DNA of 64,000 nucleotides from Chloroflexota bacterium (lineage in GTDB: Bacteria; Chloroflexota; UBA11872). The first letter of the stretch is position 1. The number at the start of each line of letters is the position of its first letter. The translations under genes were made by a program, and so were the position numbers. The DNA lies in contig OY764080.1 of NCBI GenBank assembly GCA_963667925.1, positions 310,501 through 374,500 of the forward strand, read 5' to 3'. The notes under the pieces are model-generated. The model searched no databases. It was not told the DNA's origin and was given only the letters and a program-made list of their open reading frames with translations. Shown here in pieces: positions 9,708 to 38,480 of this stretch.

Positions 9708-9743
9708 GAGAGGGGCGCCGGGAGTTATCCCGGCGCCCCTCTC
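9708..9743. terminator. Strong hairpin between convergent genes (probable terminator)
   Basis: 16-bp perfect stem GAGAGGGGCGCCGGGA-GTTA-TCCCGGCGCCCCTCTC. Confidence 0.7.
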
Positions 9744-19052: not shown

Positions 19053-19547
19053 ATGTCCAAACCTGACCTTCCCTTCGAGGAGACCCCGAAGCGCCTCATC
19101 AACTTGGCGAGGGCTTTTCGAAGGCGCCGAACAAGCGCCGAAGGTGTGCTCTGGGGACTGGTGCGCAGTCGCCGCATGGGCGTTAAATTCCGACGCCAGC
19201 ACCCCATCGAGCCCTTCGTCCTCGACTTCTATTGCCATGAACTGCGCCTGGCCGTTGAGCTAGACGGCAGCCAGCACACCGCTCCGGCTCAACGCATCGG
19301 TGACGACCGCCGCACGGCCGCCCTGGCAGCTCGAGGAATCCAGGTGCTGCGCTTCTCGAACCTCGAAATCCTTCAGGAAACACAAGCCGTCGCCGAGACC
19401 CTCTGGCAAGCCTGCCAGCAGCGCCTCACAACGACTGACCGAAGACCACGGCAAGGCAGCCGCGGCTCTTCGCCCTGTCCAGGTGGAGAGACAGAGCCTG
19501 GCCCCAGCCTGCCGAGGGTTTCCGCCGTCCGCCACGGGAATCCGTGA
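19053..19547 (+). CDS. DUF559 (Vsr-like very-short-patch-repair superfamily) endonuclease
   Basis: 'TSAEGVLW', 'KFRRQHPI', 'VLDFYC', 'AVELDGSQH', 'VLRFSN'; the last ~27 codons are repeat-derived. Confidence 0.9.
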   Translation: MSKPDLPFEETPKRLINLARAFRRRRTSAEGVLWGLVRSRRMGVKFRRQHPIEPFVLDFYCHELRLAVELDGSQHTAPAQRIGDDRRTAALAARGIQVLRFSNLEILQETQAVAETLWQACQQRLTTTDRRPRQGSRGSSPCPGGETEPGPSLPRVSAVRHGNP

Positions 19548-20173
19548 GCGGTCTTCCGGGCAATCGCTACCCGAGGTCTTCCGATCCTCAGAGGCGCGTC
19601 CGTTCTTCACCCTCTCCAAGGGGAGAGGCAGAACCTGCCCTGAGCTTGTCGAAGGATTCCGCCGTCTTCGGCGGAAATCGGTGAGGGGTCTGCCGCGCAC
19701 CCAACCCTCGAGCGATCTGGGTCCGTTGACGAGGCAGGTCGGCTCTTCACCCTCTCCGAGGGGAGAGGCAGGTTCGGCCGGCCCCGGCCGAAACCGGTGA
19801 GGGGTCTGCCGCGCACCCAAGCCTTGAGCGATCAAGGTTCGTTGGCGAGGCAGGTCGGCTCTTCACCCTCTCCGAGGGGAGAGGCAGATTCGGGCGTCTT
19901 CGGCCGAAATCGGTGAGGGGTCTGCCGCGCAACCAACCCTCGAGCGATCTAGGTCCGTTGACGAGACGATTCGGCTCTTCACCCTCTCCAAGGGGAGAGG
20001 CAGAACCTGTCCTGAGCTTGCCGAAGGATTCCGCCGTCTTCGGCCGAAACCGGTGAGCAACTGTGTTCGGCGTCAACCTGCTTGAGGAGTCGCCGATCTT
20101 CACCCTCTCCGAGGGGAGAGGCAGATTCGGGCGTCTTCGGCCGAAATCGGTGAGGGGTCTGCCGCGCACCCAA
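19467..20173 (+). repeat. Tandem array of six REP-like palindromic units (116-140 bp period)
   Basis: Unit starts TCTTCACCCTCTCC at 19467 (degenerate), 19604, 19744, 19860, 19976, 20097; core ...GGGGAGAGGCAGATTCGGGCGTCTTCGGCCGAAATCGGTGAGGGGTCTGCC. Confidence 0.9.
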
Positions 20174-20256
20174 CTTCGGGTTACTCAAGAGTCTCCGCGG
20201 GGATTAACGATGGGAGTCGCGATCCTCGATGACAGGCACGGCTGACGAGCCGGGGC

Positions 20257-20697
20257 TTATTGCCTTCCACCCAGCGGCACATCCCGACCTTCGTCCAGAT
20301 CCAGCCGGTCGAACTGGCGGGAGAGGTCGGTGCGGTGGGACTGGCCGATGTCGGCCAGGAACTGGCGGTAGCGCTCGCGCGCGGTGTCGTCCTGCGGGGT
20401 GATGGTCATCATGCGGCGGTTGAAGGCCATGATCTCGGTGGCGGAGCGCGGACGCATCCGCGCCTTGATCCAGGCCCAGACCGCCTCGTCGCTGTCGCGC
20501 GCGGCCACGGCGTCCACGAAGTCCTGCGGCTCGACCCCCAGGAACTCCAGCAGCATCCCGGAAAAGAAGGTGCGCGAAATGTAGTCCCCCAGCTTCCCGG
20601 CAATCTCCGCCCGAACCTTGTCGATTGCCCGCGGCAAAAACACGATCCCCTGCATCGACTCGTACGGACTGCGCGGTATCCCGTTTACCAGATCCAT
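20257..20697 (-). CDS. DUF5069 domain protein
   Basis: 'PRSPY', 'LPRAIDKVRA', 'GKLGDY', 'LEFLGV', 'FDRLDLDE'; GGAG/GAGG RBS upstream of ATG 20697. Confidence 0.75.
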   Translation of the reverse strand: MDLVNGIPRSPYESMQGIVFLPRAIDKVRAEIAGKLGDYISRTFFSGMLLEFLGVEPQDFVDAVAARDSDEAVWAWIKARMRPRSATEIMAFNRRMMTITPQDDTARERYRQFLADIGQSHRTDLSRQFDRLDLDEGRDVPLGGRQ

Positions 20698-21444
20698 TGT
20701 GTACCTCTCTCCAACGGCGACCTTTGAATAATGCGCCCTGAGCAGCGCCAAGGGGCGGTGGCCGCCCCTCGACAGAGTAGCGAGGGGTGAGGCCGCATGG
20801 GACGGCGTCCCCAAGTCCGGCACCCGACGCACCGTGCTGTCGGTCGCGGAGACGACGAATCACCCGCTCTACGGCGTCATCACCATATGCAAGTTGCGGC
20901 GACTGGATCACGGGCGGCTCCGATTTCAAAACCAGGGCTCCAAGACCTCCAACTCATCGGCACCCTCGACGTTCGCCGCTAATCCACCCTCTCCGGCAAC
21001 ACCGAACAGGTCGATCTCTGATATCCACACCGATCTCGAAGCTGCAATTAGACACTGTCTGTCAACCGTCCAGGATGTCGCCTCCCGCACGCGAACCTCT
21101 CTCCACCTCGAGGTTCGTCACGCATTGCAAATTCATCCACGAAGTGAGACTGACGGTTCCACGCGATTACGACGATGCTAAAGAGTATTAGCGCCCTAGC
21201 CCCGATCCGACATCAACTACATCGTCACAGCGCCCTACAGTGAACGAAGGTGCATGTCGCATGAGCAGAGCTACACTGCCATGCTCCGCGAAGCTACAAT
21301 TGGCCTCAAAGTGCACTCACCACTCCGCCAACTCTTTCGTCAGCTACAGCCAGCGACTCTATCTGTGGGCGCCGATCCCGAGAAACGACGAAGGTCTACT
21401 TTGCCAGTTGTCAGCCAACCTAGGATACGGTAGCCTCTTCCATC

Positions 21445-21580
21445 GGTGCCCACGGCGAGGATTAATTATCTCTGCTGATCCAGCTTTGATCATCGCTCAC
21501 GTGTGCTTTACGCGCTACCATTCATCAGCGCGCCGTTTTTCGCGCCTGTTCGCGGAAAGCTAAATCCCGTCGTGGGCACC
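21445..21580 (+). ncRNA. Candidate retron msr-msd ncRNA
   Basis: Terminal inverted repeats GGTGCCCACG (21445-54) / CGTGGGCACC (21571-80), extendable to ~18 bp, enclose a small hairpin (TGATC/GATCA, 21476-92) and a long imperfect hairpin (21505-21560); ends 47 nt before the retron RT start. Confidence 0.7.
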
Positions 21581-21627
21581 AGATAACATCACCGTCCAAC
21601 AAGATAGATTCATGAATTTCGATCTAA

Positions 21628-23181
21628 ATGTCCATTAGCGTCAGTTATACCTTTCAGCAGTCAAGAGAACAGTTCTCAAATCTCAAACACCCTAAGGACG
21701 TCGCAGCAATGCTCGATGTGTCCTACGATGACTTAGTGTATTGGCTATACAGAACTCCTGAGCGGCGACGCTATCGAACCCTCACTATCCCGAAGAAGCT
21801 CGGCGGACTCCGTGAAATCGAAGCGCCAAATGATAGTATCAAGATTCTGCAACAAAAGCTCAACTATATACTTAAGTCGATTTACGTACCTAAGCCAAGC
21901 GTGCACGGCTTTGCAGTACGCAAGAGCGTAAAGACCAATGCGAGAGTCCATGCTAATAAGCAGTGGGTCTTCAACGTTGACTTGAAAGACTTCTTTCATG
22001 AAATCAACTTCGGTCGTGTGCGAGGGATGTTCATGGCGAAGCCGTATGATCTTCCGCCTAAAGTCGCAACAGTTCTGGCCCACATGTGCTGTCACCAGGG
22101 CCGCCTTCCTCAGGGTGCACCGACGTCACCTATTGTGAGCAATATGCTGTGTGGACGTATGGATAGCCAACTTCAGACTCTAGCCAAGAACAATCATTCC
22201 ACATACACCCGATATGCGGACGATATTACATTCTCAACGACGAGGAAGAGATTTCCAGCAGACATCGCTTATCTTGATAGTCTGGGACGTATACGACCAG
22301 GTGTTGTACTCCGTGAAGTCATTAACGACAACGGATTCCGCATCAATAGAAGGAAGGTCTGGCTAGCGGGCAAACACAATAGGCAGATCGTGACGGGTGT
22401 TGTAGTCAACGTGTTTCCCAATGTCCCACGGCGTTTCACTAATCAGATTCGCGCCATGCTGCATGCTTGGAAGCAGCACGGCTTGGCCGCTGCACAGACG
22501 GAATGGGAGAAGAAGTATCACATTCATCATGGTGCGCCCTGGCGTCGACCTCCGCAGTTTCCTGAGGTTTTGCTGGGTAAGATAGAATATTTGGGAATGA
22601 TAAGGGGCCTAGACTGTTCTGTGTATTTGAGATTTCTCGATCAATTGAATGCACTCGATGCGACGCTTGCAACGAAGCGTGGAACACCTATGCGCCTGCT
22701 TAGATCGTACTATTATAAGCTTGCTAAGTCGAGGTCTATAGATCCGCAGGAGCGAGGGCGACGTTATGAGAAAGTAGTTGCTCAACTGTTCGGAATCTCA
22801 GGAATTGAAGTTTCGGAAGCATTTCGCCGAAACAAAGGAGGTGAGCAGATTGATGGAGCTTTTAGTCTGGACAATCGACACTATTTGGTTGAGTGTAAAT
22901 GGCAAGAGAGGCTGACAATGCAGTCCGATATTGATTCGCTAAGTGGGAAAATCGGACGCTCCGGTGATCAGACAATGGGAGTGCTGATTTCGGTGAACGG
23001 ATGGTCTGGACATGTCGAGGGTCTAATGAAGCAGAGTTCGGCGAAACGAATCTTCCTAGCGAATGGACGAGACATTGAGGCAATACTGTCTGGCGAGATA
23101 GATCTTAAGGAGTTGTTTCGCACCAAGGAGCGAGCGCTCAGCATCCAAGGAGAGCCATTCTTAAGTGTCGAAGACATCTGA
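21628..23181 (+). CDS. Retron-type reverse transcriptase fused to a C-terminal Mrr-like PD-(D/E)xK endonuclease
   Basis: Retron region X 'NARVH' (NAxxH), 'DLKDFF', 'LPQGAPTSP', 'YADD', region Y 'VTG'; residues ~372-517 carry 'ERGRRYE...EQIDG...LVECKW'; GC about 47% in a sampled line. Confidence 0.9.
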   Translation: MSISVSYTFQQSREQFSNLKHPKDVAAMLDVSYDDLVYWLYRTPERRRYRTLTIPKKLGGLREIEAPNDSIKILQQKLNYILKSIYVPKPSVHGFAVRKSVKTNARVHANKQWVFNVDLKDFFHEINFGRVRGMFMAKPYDLPPKVATVLAHMCCHQGRLPQGAPTSPIVSNMLCGRMDSQLQTLAKNNHSTYTRYADDITFSTTRKRFPADIAYLDSLGRIRPGVVLREVINDNGFRINRRKVWLAGKHNRQIVTGVVVNVFPNVPRRFTNQIRAMLHAWKQHGLAAAQTEWEKKYHIHHGAPWRRPPQFPEVLLGKIEYLGMIRGLDCSVYLRFLDQLNALDATLATKRGTPMRLLRSYYYKLAKSRSIDPQERGRRYEKVVAQLFGISGIEVSEAFRRNKGGEQIDGAFSLDNRHYLVECKWQERLTMQSDIDSLSGKIGRSGDQTMGVLISVNGWSGHVEGLMKQSSAKRIFLANGRDIEAILSGEIDLKELFRTKERALSIQGEPFLSVEDI

Positions 23182-23478
23182 TAGCGCTAATAGAAAGCGC
23201 TTGACGGCTACGTGAAAGCTCCCGCGAGCAAGTCGGCCGCGCTGCAGTTCCAATATTCTTGAAGAGGAGTTGCTGAGTTCGCGACATACCCGACAGCCGC
23301 TGATCTCAGTAGATGAAATGATCGTCTAAGGCCAGCGGACCCTGGTTGCACATACGTGGCGGTCACCGAATTCGAGGGCATTTAGGACGCCGATGCGAGG
23401 CAACTTCATTCACTTGGTGAAGCAGCGAGCTGAGCAGTGGCGCGGATTGTTAGGCAGATGTAGGTTGTTCCATTTCTC

Positions 23479-23712
23479 TCACTTGATCTCGACCGTCGCA
23501 GTCCTGTACTCGAGAATCTGAGTCCAATTGTAATCTCTACGGAACGGCGACTTCAGCGTACGCCGAACCGGTGCCCTCCGTGCAATCGGCCGCCCCCGTC
23601 TCGTAGTCGCAATCTGCCTTCTCGTCGCCGCCGCCTCGACGATCATCCCGAGGCACTTCGCCCTGGACTCCGTCGCACTCGTCACCCGAGCCCCACTGGA
23701 CCGCGTATTCAT
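23479..23712 (-). pseudogene. Phd/YefM-type antitoxin, probably degenerate
   Basis: 'SATESRAKCLGMIVEAAATRRQIATTRRGRPIAR' resembles the Phd consensus ATEFKAKCL...DEV...ITKRGKPVA with several substitutions; no cognate toxin seen. Confidence 0.5.
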
Positions 23713-23771
23713 GCTTCTCGGTCAAGGTTCTCCATCACTCCAGTACGGCCATGACTACGCTGAGGACGAGC

Positions 23772-24104
23772 TCATATTTGGGCATGTGCTCCGCCCGTCC
23801 GCTGCCCATCCTTGCGCGTCTCAAGCCAGCGCTTCAGTGACCTTTGGCTCTCACCCGAAGGCCGACCGGCCAGCAATCCTTCCACGCTGATGTCCTCGTC
23901 CAGGTCGGGCCAGTGGACGCCTTCGCCTCCGCCGATCAGCCGCCAATTGCGCCGTTCGTGCGGTGCCGCGTGCGCCAGCCGCGGATACCAGGCCAGCGGA
24001 ACCGAGATCGACCGCCCGTCCGAGAGCTCCGCCGTCAGCGTGTTGTCCGTAACCTCCACGCCCTCGGCCTCCGGAACGCTGACGTCAATCGTCAAGAAGG
24101 TCAT
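23772..24104 (-). CDS. DUF2442 domain protein (antitoxin-like partner of DUF4160)
   Basis: 'LSDGRSISVPLAWYPRL', 'GEGVHWPDLDEDISVEGLL'. Confidence 0.9.
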   Translation of the reverse strand: MTFLTIDVSVPEAEGVEVTDNTLTAELSDGRSISVPLAWYPRLAHAAPHERRNWRLIGGGEGVHWPDLDEDISVEGLLAGRPSGESQRSLKRWLETRKDGQRTGGAHAQI

Positions 24105-38437: not shown

Positions 38438-38480
38438 ACCAATCCCCTGGGCGGAATCCACCGGCCGATCGCGAGGCGGG

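What the first reader, a model, noticed from the sequence alone, without database searches (positions are those of the whole stretch)
21445..21580. Unannotated retron-like ncRNA (a1/a2 arms, msr hairpin, msd hairpin) immediately upstream of the RT
Seen: GGTGCCCACG (21445-54) pairs perfectly with CGTGGGCACC (21571-80) and extends to ~18 bp with one G-U and one bulge. Inside are a 5-bp hairpin TGATC/GATCA (21476-92) and a long imperfect hairpin, with GCTTTACGCG (21505-14) pairing CGCGGAAAGC (21551-60) around an inner GCGCG/CGCGC stem. This is the nested order expected for msr-msd. The element ends 47 nt before the RT start. Inference: a short msDNA of about 55-65 nt. The branching G is not certain; G21455 is the first G after the perfect helix.
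Basis: partly seen in the sequence, partly recalled or inferred. Interest (0 to 1): 0.8.

Follow-up and report, generated by a model that had tools for sequence, protein, structure and literature searches.

The report
Retron msr-msd RNA before RT-Mrr gene
The 136-base structured element just upstream of the reverse-transcriptase gene is a genuine retron non-coding RNA (the template for a small single-stranded DNA of about 60 nt), belonging to an RNA family shared by single-gene retrons, here attached to a reverse transcriptase fused to an Mrr-type nuclease that current retron classifications do not list.

Summary
Window 21445-21580 (+) has an 18-bp closing stem, and it is the only inverted repeat of at least 14 nt in 20600-24000. 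Its fold is far more stable than shuffles (z = -6.3).

It lies 47 nt upstream of a 517-aa retron-type RT (NAxxH, YADD, VTG) fused to an Mrr/PD-(D/E)xK nuclease domain.

The same architecture sits upstream of 21 of 22 RT-Mrr homolog loci. It also precedes related RT-Toprim, RT-protease (type XI) and RT-TIR (type XII) genes: 74 covariance-model hits, all on the RT strand just 5' of the gene. Covariation is strong: 36 of 38 pairs change on both sides in 35 sequences not used to build the model.

A published type XI retron (Nitrospira, Khan et al. 2024) with sequenced RT-DNA belongs to this RNA family. Mapping its RT-DNA ends onto the window predicts a template at 21501-21561, so an msDNA of about 61 nt.

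- The conserved msr hairpin is GCUG/AUC/CAGC (21474-21484), not TGATC/GATCA.
- G21455 is a paired, covarying position, not the branch G.

The position where relatives have the presumed branching G is A21464 here. This is unexplained.

Verdict: a real retron ncRNA, and a new effector variant of a known kind.

The parts
21445..21457 (+). a1, outer part of the closing stem. Pairs with 21568-21580. May extend to 21442-44 / 21582-84.
   Evidence: Sequence and MFE. All 15 outer-helix pairs covary on a sequence-only alignment. Cognate a1/a2 duplexes average -27.3 kcal/mol against -12.2 for non-cognate ones.
21459..21463 (+). a1, inner helix GGAUU. Pairs with AAUCC 21563-67. A21458 is bulged.
   Evidence: Helix 1 (90% of cells paired; GC/CG and AU/GC/UA switches). 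Helix 2.
21464..21464 (+). Junction nucleotide X, the first nucleotide after a1. It is G in 39 of 54 non-Mrr family members and in both validated type XI retrons, where it is the presumed branching G. It is A in the window.
   Evidence: PMC10849725 supplement 3.
21474..21484 (+). msr hairpin: GCUG / AUC / CAGC, carrying the near-invariant motif CUGAUCCAG (21475-83). The lower stem is weak in the window (AUC 21468-70 / GAU 21488-90 across a 3x3 internal loop).
   Evidence: RNAalifold. Helix 2 (97% paired, 4 pairs with changes on both sides). Helix 3 (93% paired, 8 of 9 pairs covary).
21499..21501 (+). ACG, the window's version of the conserved AAGG motif. G21501 is aligned with the last template base copied in the validated retrons K1143 and K1163.
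21501..21561 (+). Predicted msd template (61 nt, +/- 2). The predicted msDNA is its reverse complement, 5'-AGCTTTCCGCG...AAAGCACAC-3'.
   Evidence: Homology mapping of sequenced RT-DNA ends from Khan et al. 2024; sequence computed. This is inferred, not measured.
21505..21514 (+). msd stem base, 5' strand (GCUUU-A-CGCG). Pairs with 21551-21560.
   Evidence: Helices 3 and 4 (80% and 79% paired; 6 pairs with changes on both sides). Helices 4 and 5.
21526..21548 (+). Apical msd hairpin (CAG-C-GCGC / loop CGUUUUUC / GCGC-CUG). This is the variable part of the family.
   Evidence: Constrained fold. G-C to G.U changes in L161 keep the pairing. It is not conserved beyond close relatives.
21551..21560 (+). 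msd stem base, 3' strand (CGCG-G-AAAGC).
21562..21562 (+). Junction nucleotide Y, facing X. In validated relatives the RT-DNA starts at the base immediately 5' of Y. Y covaries with X (G,G 39; A,A 15; C,A 7; U,G 6).
21563..21580 (+). a2: inner AAUCC 21563-67 plus outer CGUCGUGGGCACC 21568-80.
21628..23181 (+). The retron RT-Mrr gene (517 aa). RT domain roughly 14-346 with N104-A-x-x-H108, Y196ADD and V255TG. Mrr_cat / PD-(D/E)xK domain 377-484 with D409 and E422-C-K424.

Best explanation
Window 21445-21580 is the msr-msd non-coding RNA of a single-gene retron. The retron's reverse transcriptase is fused to an Mrr-type (PD-(D/E)xK) nuclease and is encoded at 21628-23181.

Shown here:
- The RNA has a conserved, covarying architecture: a long closing a1/a2 stem in two parts, an msr hairpin with a near-invariant loop (CUGAUCCAG), and a long msd hairpin with a conserved base and a variable tip.
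- This architecture travels with this RT lineage whatever the fused effector is.
- A member of the same RNA family has been shown experimentally by others to be reverse-transcribed.

Inferred:
1. The RNA is co-transcribed with the RT.
2. The RT binds the msr hairpin and the a1/a2 junction.
3. It primes from a 2'-OH at the junction and copies U21561 back to about G21501, giving an msDNA of about 61 nt.
4. By analogy with retron Eco2 (RT-Toprim), the msDNA-RT-nuclease complex keeps the Mrr nuclease inactive until a phage factor damages or displaces the msDNA. The nuclease then cuts nucleic acid and aborts the infection.

The priming nucleotide is not settled.
For: Structure:
- z = -6.34, and this is the only long inverted repeat in the region.

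Protein:
- RVT_1 2.3e-17 and Mrr_cat 24.8 bits, above the cutoff of 21.
- The best PADLOC models are RT-Protease_XI, RT-TIR_XII and RT-Toprim_I-C, at 1e-133 to 1e-115, over the RT part only.
- The retron motifs NAxxH, YADD and VTG, and D409/E422, are invariant in 37 homologs.
- The closest solved structure is retron Ec67/Eco2: 4.7e-56 by sequence and Foldseek 3.9e-29.
- The model (pLDDT 87.6) has an alpha-beta-beta-beta-alpha-beta C-terminal core.

Comparative RNA evidence:
- 21 of 22 distinct RT-Mrr loci carry the element.
- On a MAFFT sequence-only alignment of 24, 88% of cells are paired against 30-49% when partners are slid, and 0 of 500 shuffles reach the observed value.
- All 15 outer-stem pairs covary.
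- Cognate a1/a2 duplexes average -27.3 kcal/mol against -12.2 for non-cognate ones.
- Model R1 finds 74 full-length hits, all on the + strand just 5' of the RT.
- In 35 sequences not used for the model, 87% of cells are paired against 37-46%, and 36 of 38 pairs change on both sides.

Experimental anchor:
- Khan et al. 2024 (PMC10849725, supplement 3) give the ncRNA and RT-DNA of the type XI retron 'terminal 1143' (RT-DNA at 0.79x Eco1).
- That ncRNA scores 40.9 bits against the family HMM. Shuffles, Ec67 and three other clade-8 ncRNAs score nothing.
- Its RT-DNA ends map to window 21501 and 21561. A related type XI retron, 1163, shows the same boundaries.

Context:
- The cassette is a 2.4-kb low-GC island, 47-54% against 63-70% in the flanks.
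- Homologs sit next to R-M, GmrSD, integrase and transposase genes.
- Eco2 mechanism: PMC12916289.
Against: - There is no expression or msDNA data for this locus or for any RT-Mrr retron.
- The position where most relatives, and both validated ones, have a G right after a1 is A21464 here. It is non-G in 17 of 20 Mrr-type loci. The canonical priming site is therefore missing or moved.
- The lower stem of the window's msr hairpin carries three mismatches relative to the family.
- ViennaRNA's unconstrained MFE prefers another msd fold (-60.9 kcal/mol) over the covariation-supported one (-56.8).
- No sigma-70-like promoter match lies upstream. The host is probably not a proteobacterium, so this is weak.
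- The CM does not detect the Ec67 ncRNA.
- The Mrr_cat match is modest (E = 2.4e-5), and the catalytic Lys is Arg in 14 of 37 homologs.
Confidence: 0.9

Rival explanations
1. The element is a decayed or non-productive retron. The RNA is a recognisable msr-msd homolog, but this copy (or the whole RT-Mrr clade) no longer makes branched msDNA, because the priming G is lost and the msr stem is eroded.
For: X is A21464 rather than G. The hairpin-base G conserved in about 92% of the family is U in the window and in L161, and the lower msr stem has three mismatches. One homolog (L246) has lost the RNA altogether, next to a transposase.
Against: - The RT-Mrr ORF is intact with all catalytic motifs.
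- The element still scores 102 bits.
- The non-G state at X is shared by 17 of 20 Mrr-type loci that are only 38-78% identical in protein. It co-varies with Y (A.A or C.A in place of G.G) in several effector classes. That looks like a maintained alternative, not decay.
- Substitutions between the window and L161 preserve pairing in a1/a2 and in the msd tip.
Confidence: 0.07
2. The element is a structured 5' leader, such as an attenuator, thermosensor or protein-binding site, that only regulates RT-Mrr expression and is not reverse-transcribed.
For: It lies 47 nt upstream of the start codon on the same strand. No msDNA data exist for this locus.
Against: A member of the same RNA family (K1143) yields sequenced RT-DNA from exactly the homologous segment. 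The architecture is the retron one: a1/a2 enclosing an msr hairpin and an msd hairpin. The downstream gene is a retron-type RT, which needs such a template. No terminator-like U-tract follows any helix.
Confidence: 0.02
3. The inverted repeats are the ends of a small mobile element (MITE or IS remnant), or part of a protein-coding ORF (21240-21563, 107 aa).
For: The 20-nt inverted repeat is 96 nt apart. An ORF formally overlaps it. The cassette is a low-GC island.
Against: - There is only one copy in the window, and no flanking direct repeats.
- The arm sequences differ between loci while pairing is kept. That is RNA-level selection, not transposase-site conservation.
- The ORF has no Pfam match and is not conserved in homologous loci.
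Confidence: 0.01

Closest known systems
Type XI retron ncRNA, as validated for 'retron terminal 1143' (Nitrospira sp. ST-bin5) in Khan et al. 2024, PMC10849725
   Same: The RNA family is the same. It shares the two-part a1/a2 stem ending in ..AUU / AAU.., the msr hairpin with a UGAUCC loop at a fixed 12-nt distance from AUU, the AAGG motif, the GCUUUACG.../...AAGGC msd base, and RT-DNA boundaries at conserved positions. The RT lineage is the same (clade 8; PADLOC RT-Protease_XI is the window RT's best hit).
   Different: The effector is a trypsin-like protease there and an Mrr nuclease here. The junction is G.G there and A.A here. The msd tip sequence is unrelated.
Retron Eco2 / Ec67 (type I-C1, RT-Toprim single-gene retron; PMC12916289)
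   Same: It is the closest solved structure and the best-understood mechanism for a one-polypeptide RT-nuclease retron. Its msDNA cages the nuclease, and phage DenB degrades the msDNA to release it. The ncRNA layout is similar (a1, G15-AUUU, hairpin with a UGAAUC loop, msd, a2), and the RT is similar (4.7e-56; Foldseek 3.9e-29).
   Different: The nuclease fold is Toprim against PD-(D/E)xK. The Ec67 ncRNA is not detected by the family CM, even with filters off, or by the HMM. Ec67 has no inner AUU/AAU helix. None of 80 IMG/VR loci with more distant RTs match the CM either.
Type XII (RT-TIR) and I-C-like (RT-Toprim, PADLOC PDLC02965/68) single-gene retrons
   Same: The CM hits lie just upstream of the RT in the same orientation: L010, L021 and L096 (Toprim, 56-87 bits), and L049 and L072 (TIR, 24-25 bits). 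In Mestre et al. 2020 the ncRNA was listed as 'nd' for I-C3, XI and XII.
   Different: The fused effector domain differs. TIR loci match only weakly.
TXI_C2like / TXI_noncan_h candidate ncRNAs (Toro 2026, bioRxiv 10.64898/2026.05.14.725207)
   Same: [quoted passage not shown]
   Different: Those lineages are from Bacteroidota and Bacillota and carry separate WYL or DnaB_C accessory genes. No Mrr fusion is mentioned.

Membership tests
Retron (RT + msr-msd ncRNA + effector) | Retron-type RT with region X (NAxxH), YADD and region Y (VTG) | tested here: met
   N104-A-R-V-H108, Y196ADD and V255TG are present, and invariant or nearly so in 37 homologs. Retron RT HMMs score 1e-133 to 1e-47.
Retron (RT + msr-msd ncRNA + effector) | Adjacent same-strand ncRNA closed by a1/a2 inverted repeats that pair as RNA | tested here: met
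   An 18-bp stem 47 nt upstream of the RT. Its sequence varies while pairing is kept.
Retron (RT + msr-msd ncRNA + effector) | msr stem-loop(s) followed by a long msd stem-loop, conserved across homologs | tested here: met
   36 of 38 pairs change on both sides in 35 independent sequences.
Retron (RT + msr-msd ncRNA + effector) | Conserved branching G immediately 3' of a1 | tested here: inconclusive
   The homologous position is A21464. It is G in 39 of 54 non-Mrr members but in only 3 of 20 Mrr-type members. No other G column 5' of the hairpin is universal. The candidates G21459/60 and G21474 are untested.
Retron (RT + msr-msd ncRNA + effector) | RT-dependent production of msDNA / RT-DNA from the msd | not testable with these tools
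   Only by homology: the family member K1143 gives RT-DNA at 0.79x Eco1 (PMC10849725 supplement 3).
Retron (RT + msr-msd ncRNA + effector) | Associated effector gene or fused effector domain | tested here: met
   C-terminal Mrr_cat at 377-484, with invariant D409 and E422-x-K/R424. The model shows an alpha-beta-beta-beta-alpha-beta core.
Types I-C, XI and XII of Mestre et al. 2020 (clade-8 RT fused to Toprim, protease or TIR) | RT of clade 8 | tested here: met
   The best PADLOC and NCBIfam hits are the XI, XII and I-C models, over the RT part only.
Types I-C, XI and XII of Mestre et al. 2020 (clade-8 RT fused to Toprim, protease or TIR) | C-terminal Toprim, trypsin-like protease or TIR domain | tested here: not met
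   All three model sets stop at about residue 346 of 517. NCBIfam scores are below the cut-offs: 352 against 600, and 336 against 450. The C-terminus is Mrr_cat. Mestre's Table 1 lists no Mrr or restriction-endonuclease fusion.
Ec67-type (I-C1) ncRNA | Sequence and structure similarity to the Ec67 msr-msd | tested here: not met
   CM R1 with filters off gives no hit on L251:2501-2632. nhmmer gives no hit.
Rfam RNA families | Match to any curated covariance model | tested here: not met

The most novel reading that the evidence does not exclude
RT-Mrr retrons, and a scattered minority of related Toprim and protease retrons, may have replaced the canonical G.G junction with A.A or C.A. The canonical junction is the branching G after a1, facing a G before a2. 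If so, they would start msDNA synthesis from a non-guanosine 2'-OH or from a relocated primer nucleotide. Either would depart from the rule that all characterised retrons branch from a conserved G next to a1. In addition, the Mrr fusion would be a new retron type in which msDNA gates a PD-(D/E)xK DNA nuclease.
Probability: 0.15. Interest if true: 0.8.

Novelty: new variant of a known kind. Interest (0 to 1): 0.5.

Why it matters
1. It completes a retron. With RT, effector domain and template RNA all identified, the RT-Mrr cassette (about 1.9 kb, 21445-23181) can be cloned and tested directly as a one-gene defence system.

2. The RT-Mrr fusion is widespread: more than 100 homologs of about 520 aa at 47-78% identity in metagenomes. 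Yet it is absent from the 13-type retron classification, from PADLOC v2 and from NCBIfam full-length models, and from every paper found in the held library.

3. The covariance model built here recognises the ncRNA of canonical type XI and of many I-C-like and XII loci. For these lineages the ncRNA was 'not determined' in 2020, and a 2026 preprint still describes it as lacking a computational model.

4. Conserved landmarks now predict the msd boundaries. Retron engineers need these boundaries and say they currently can get them only empirically.

5. The coupled G.G to A.A switch at the priming junction is a concrete, testable oddity about how these RTs choose their primer.

Tried and rejected
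Rejected: it is not conserved in L161 and is replaced family-wide by the CUGAUCCAG hairpin.
- **G21455 as the branch G.** Rejected: it is a covarying pair, G.U, A-U or G-C.
- **Mapping Ec67's G15 with the CM.** Failed: I fetched the Ec67 locus, but the CM and the HMM do not align it. Only a by-eye resemblance remains (G-AUUU plus a UGAAUC loop).
- **A universally conserved G 5' of the msr loop.** None found.
- **Rfam.** No match.
- **Sigma-70 promoter and intrinsic terminator scan.** Nothing upstream, and fewer sites than in shuffles.
- **IMG/VR.** No full-length RT-Mrr, and no CM hit in 80 viral loci.
- **Flanking direct repeats of the low-GC island.** None of at least 14 nt.
- **ORF 21240-21563.** No family match.
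- **PDB sequence search with the Mrr domain alone.** Nothing. The whole-protein Foldseek search is dominated by the RT, so the nuclease fold was judged only from Pfam, the conserved motif and the secondary-structure order.
- **Literature searches for a retron with Mrr, PDDEXK or 'type XIV'.** Nothing relevant.
- **K1163, K1195, K1235 and K1156 ncRNAs.** Not detected by the sequence HMM. K1163 is linked to the family only through its relatives L144 and L145 (CM 25-29 bits) and by eye.

Full report
**1. The observation**

The sequence is as described.
- GGTGCCCACG (21445-54) and CGTGGGCACC (21571-80) are perfect complements.
- The helix continues through G21455.U21570, C21456-G21569 and G21457-C21568, then a bulged A21458, then GGAUU (21459-63) / AAUCC (21563-67). 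That is 18 bp.
- TGATC/GATCA (21476-80 / 21488-92) and GCTTTACGCG/CGCGGAAAGC (21505-14 / 21551-60) are present.
- The element ends 47 nt before ATG 21628.

It is not a chance feature.
- Folded as RNA, 21435-21590 gives -63.3 kcal/mol. Dinucleotide shuffles give -39.7 +/- 3.7 (z = -6.34; none of 200 as stable).
- It is the only inverted repeat of at least 14 nt in 20600-24000.
- Rfam 15 has no match.

**2. The gene downstream**

ORF 21628-23181 encodes 517 aa.
- Pfam finds RVT_1 (54-247, 2.3e-17) and Mrr_cat (377-484, 24.8 bits against a cutoff of 21).
- The best PADLOC models are RT-Protease_XI (1.6e-133), RT-TIR_XII (4.2e-124) and RT-Toprim_I-C (5.4e-115). All stop near residue 346, so only the RT part matches.
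- NCBIfam retron models also match only the RT part and fall below their cut-offs.
- The retron signatures NAxxH (N104, H108), YADD (196-199) and VTG (255-257) are invariant or nearly so in 37 aligned homologs. So are D409 and E422 of a D...ExK motif. K424 is Lys in 23 and Arg in 14.
- The closest solved protein is retron Ec67/Eco2 (4.7e-56, RT part).
- An AlphaFold2 model (mean pLDDT 87.6) has Eco2 as its best Foldseek hit (3.9e-29). Its C-terminal domain has helix-strand-strand-strand-helix-strand order, with D409 at the start of strand 2 and E422-x-K424 on strand 3. This is the classic PD-(D/E)xK layout.
- The protein database holds more than 100 proteins of about 520 aa, 47-78% identical over their full length.
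- The source's own gene call starts at M28 (490 aa), but homologs align from residue 1.

**3. Is the RNA conserved?**

I collected RT-Mrr loci from genomes (L001-L008), from metagenomes (L081-L085) and by exact-protein look-up (L161-L164, L245-L250). In 21 of 22 distinct loci the 150-230 nt upstream of the RT fold into the same plan:
- a long closing stem whose sequence differs from locus to locus;
- a hairpin with the near-invariant motif CUGAUCCAG;
- a conserved AAGG(U/G)U-GCUUUACGC block;
- a variable hairpin;
- GCGAGGAAGGC-N-RAAUUC and the 3' arm.

The exception, L246, has a DDE transposase 75 nt upstream and no match.

*Covariation on a sequence-only alignment.* On a MAFFT alignment of 24 elements (A3) I scored four helices: the inner a1/a2 helix, the msr hairpin and two msd-base helices.
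- 88.2% of cells pair, against 29.5-49.3% when the 3' partners are slid by 1-3 columns.
- 12 of 24 pairs change on both sides.
- None of 500 column shuffles reaches the observed pairing or covariation score.
- All 15 outer a1/a2 pairs change on both sides (76.8% paired against 41-51%).
- Cognate a1/a2 duplexes average -27.3 kcal/mol, and non-cognate combinations -12.2 +/- 6.1. The only strong non-cognates are close relatives.

*Comparison with the closest relatives.* L161 has an RT 78% identical to the window's.
- It differs from the window at 12 positions. G21455 becomes A and still pairs with U21570, and two G-C pairs in the msd tip become G.U.
- In L162-164 the 21455-21570 pair is G-C. Position 21455 is therefore a stem position, not the branch point.
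The conserved hairpin in the window is therefore GCUG 21474-77 / AUC / CAGC 21481-84. Its lower stem is degenerate here.
ViennaRNA's unconstrained MFE prefers a competing fold (-60.9 against -56.8 kcal/mol for the covariation-consistent fold).

**4. How far does the RNA family reach?**

A covariance model (R1: 144 positions, 38 pairs) gave these results.
- It hits the window once (21443-21582, 102 bits). The next hits are GC palindromes at no more than 18.5 bits.
- Among loci fetched only for RT similarity, it finds full-length matches in 74 loci. All are on the RT strand, ending a few tens of nt before the gene.
- By PADLOC or BLAST, those genes are full-length RT-Toprim (e.g. L010, L021, L096), RT-protease, i.e. 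canonical type XI (L017, L018, L098, L106 and others), RT-TIR type XII (L049 and L072, weakly), RTs with other domains or none, and the RT-Mrr set.
- In 35 hits that were not in the seed, 87.2% of cells pair against 36.6-46.4% when slid. 36 of 38 pairs change on both sides, and 0 of 500 shuffles reach the observed value. This alignment is fitted to the model, so it leans towards the structure.
- Eighty IMG/VR loci with more distant RTs give no hit.
- The experimentally characterised Ec67 ncRNA gives no hit even with filters off.

The RNA family therefore belongs to a sub-lineage of 'clade 8' retron RTs, and it has stayed with the RT while the fused effector was swapped.

**5. What the literature says**

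- Mestre et al. 2020 (PMC7736814) define 13 retron types. The clade-8 types are I-C (RT-Toprim), XI (RT-protease) and XII (RT-TIR). The ncRNA class is 'nd' for I-C3, XI and XII, and type XI is said to lack a recognisable ncRNA. No Mrr or restriction-endonuclease fusion appears.
- Toro 2026 (bioRxiv 10.64898/2026.05.14.725207) reports what it calls the first computational ncRNA candidates for two protease-less type XI-like lineages. It does not mention nucleases or Mrr.
- Khan et al. 2024 (PMC10849725) state that they validated ncRNAs from subtypes with no previous prediction, 'e.g. clade 8, type XI'.

Khan et al.'s supplement 3 gives the ncRNA and sequenced RT-DNA for retron 'terminal 1143' (Nitrospira sp. 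ST-bin5, type XI, RT-DNA at 0.79x Eco1).
- That ncRNA has all the landmarks of the present family.
- It scores 40.9 bits against an HMM of the 74 aligned elements. Shuffled controls, Ec67 and three other clade-8 ncRNAs score nothing.
- Its RT-DNA template runs from the second G of the AAGG motif to the base just 5' of G-AAUAC, the 3' strand of the inner helix.
- A second type XI retron (terminal 1163, Ruminococcus; RT-DNA at 0.26x Eco1) shows the same two boundaries. Its relatives L144 and L145 match R1 at 25-29 bits.

Transferred to the window, the template is G21501-U21561, and the msDNA is about 61 nt: 5'-AGCTTTCCGCGAACAGGCGCGAAAAACGGCGCGCTGATGAATGGTAGCGCGTAAAGCACAC-3'. This is a homology prediction with an uncertainty of a couple of nucleotides.

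**6. The unresolved point: the primer**

In Ec86 (from my own knowledge) and in Ec67 (G15; PMC12916289), the branching G directly follows a1 and faces the base next to the template start.

In this family I call the nucleotide after the inner helix X, and the one before its 3' strand Y.
- In both validated type XI retrons X = G and Y = G, and the RT-DNA starts at the base 5' of Y.
- Over the 74 aligned elements the (X,Y) counts are G,G 39; A,A 15; C,A 7; U,G 6; others 7.
- Fisher's exact test for G against non-G gives p = 2e-10, not corrected for phylogeny.
- Mrr-type loci have X = A 11, C 5, U 1, G 3. Other loci have G in 39 of 54.
- The A,A or C,A state also occurs in a few Toprim loci (L088, L093, L015) and protease loci (L120, L121, L115). 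The switch therefore happened more than once.
- The window has A21464 and A21562. No other G column 5' of the msr loop is universal. The window even lacks the hairpin-base G present in about 92% of the family.

There are three possibilities: another G primes (G21459/60 in the inner helix, or G21474); a non-G 2'-OH primes; or these retrons differ in how they start. I cannot decide among them from sequence.

**7. Context**

- The ncRNA plus RT-Mrr form a 2.4-kb island of 47-54% GC in a 63-70% GC background, with no flanking direct repeats.
- In other genomes the gene stands alone. Its neighbours include BglII-type R-M genes, an Eco57I-like gene, GmrSD, integrases and transposases. This fits a mobile defence gene.
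- No second effector gene is conserved next to it.

**8. Mechanism proposed**

Shown: the RNA architecture and its co-inheritance with the RT; the intact RT and nuclease motifs; reverse transcription of a homologous RNA by a related RT.

Inferred, by analogy with Eco2, where the branched msDNA cages the Toprim nuclease and phage DenB degrades the msDNA to release it (PMC12916289):
1. The RT domain copies 21561 to 21501 into msDNA.
2. The msDNA-RNA hybrid stays bound and holds the Mrr domain inactive.
3. A phage nuclease, or another msDNA-directed activity, releases the Mrr domain.
4. The PD-(D/E)xK domain cleaves nucleic acid, most likely DNA, and aborts the infection.

**9. Verdict**

This is a real retron msr-msd RNA. 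The RNA is a member of a family already validated experimentally for type XI, although no consensus model of that family has been published to my knowledge. The retron it belongs to carries an effector fusion (Mrr) that I could not find described. I rate it a new variant of a known kind, of moderate interest. One genuinely odd feature, the missing junction G, could raise the interest if it proves functional.

Noticed in passing
window 21464 and 21562; alignment A5 (74 loci): The two nucleotides flanking the inner end of the a1/a2 stem co-vary as G.G (39), A.A (15), C.A (7) and U.G (6). RT-Mrr loci are mostly A.A or C.A, while other effector classes are mostly G.G. This is a non-Watson-Crick coupling at the presumed priming site.
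   Followed up: partly
window 19454-20174: A tandem array of 5-6 copies of a 116-121-nt unit. Each copy contains GC-rich hairpins (CCTCTCCGAGGGGAGAGG...). Rfam whalefall-1 matches are weak, 18-23 bits against a gathering score of 37. Nature unknown.
   Followed up: partly
window 19053-19547 (+): An ORF of 164 aa with a DUF559 / REase_MTES_1575 (Vsr-like endonuclease fold) match at 5.6e-31, 1.9 kb upstream of the retron.
   Followed up: no
window 21000-23500: A low-GC island (47-54% against 63-70% in the flanks) that holds only the ncRNA and the RT-Mrr gene. No flanking direct repeats of at least 14 nt.
   Followed up: partly
window 9710-9741: A 32-nt GC-rich near-perfect palindrome (GAGGGGCGCCGGGAG...CTCCCGGCGCCCCTC), picked up as a bare hairpin by the covariance model (18 bits on both strands).
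   Followed up: no
L246:1-1200: An RT-Mrr homolog (53% identical; protein cluster of 53 sequences) has no ncRNA match. A DDE transposase gene ends 75 nt upstream, so this is probably a retron disrupted by an IS.
   Followed up: partly
window 22897-22899 (K424) and alignment A1: The lysine of the nuclease D...ExK motif is arginine in 14 of 37 homologs, while D409 and E422 are invariant.
   Followed up: no
window 21628-21708: The source's gene call appears to start at M28 (490-aa product, P0001). Homologs align from residue 1 of the 517-aa ORF, so the longer start is more likely.
   Followed up: partly
L009, L011-L014, L025, L034, L046 (Nostoc and other cyanobacterial loci): The same ncRNA family precedes RTs of only 330-380 aa with no fused C-terminal domain. 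Their effector, if any, must be encoded separately or be absent.
   Followed up: no
window 38479-38565 (-): A single tRNA-Leu gene, the only tRNA in the window.
   Followed up: no
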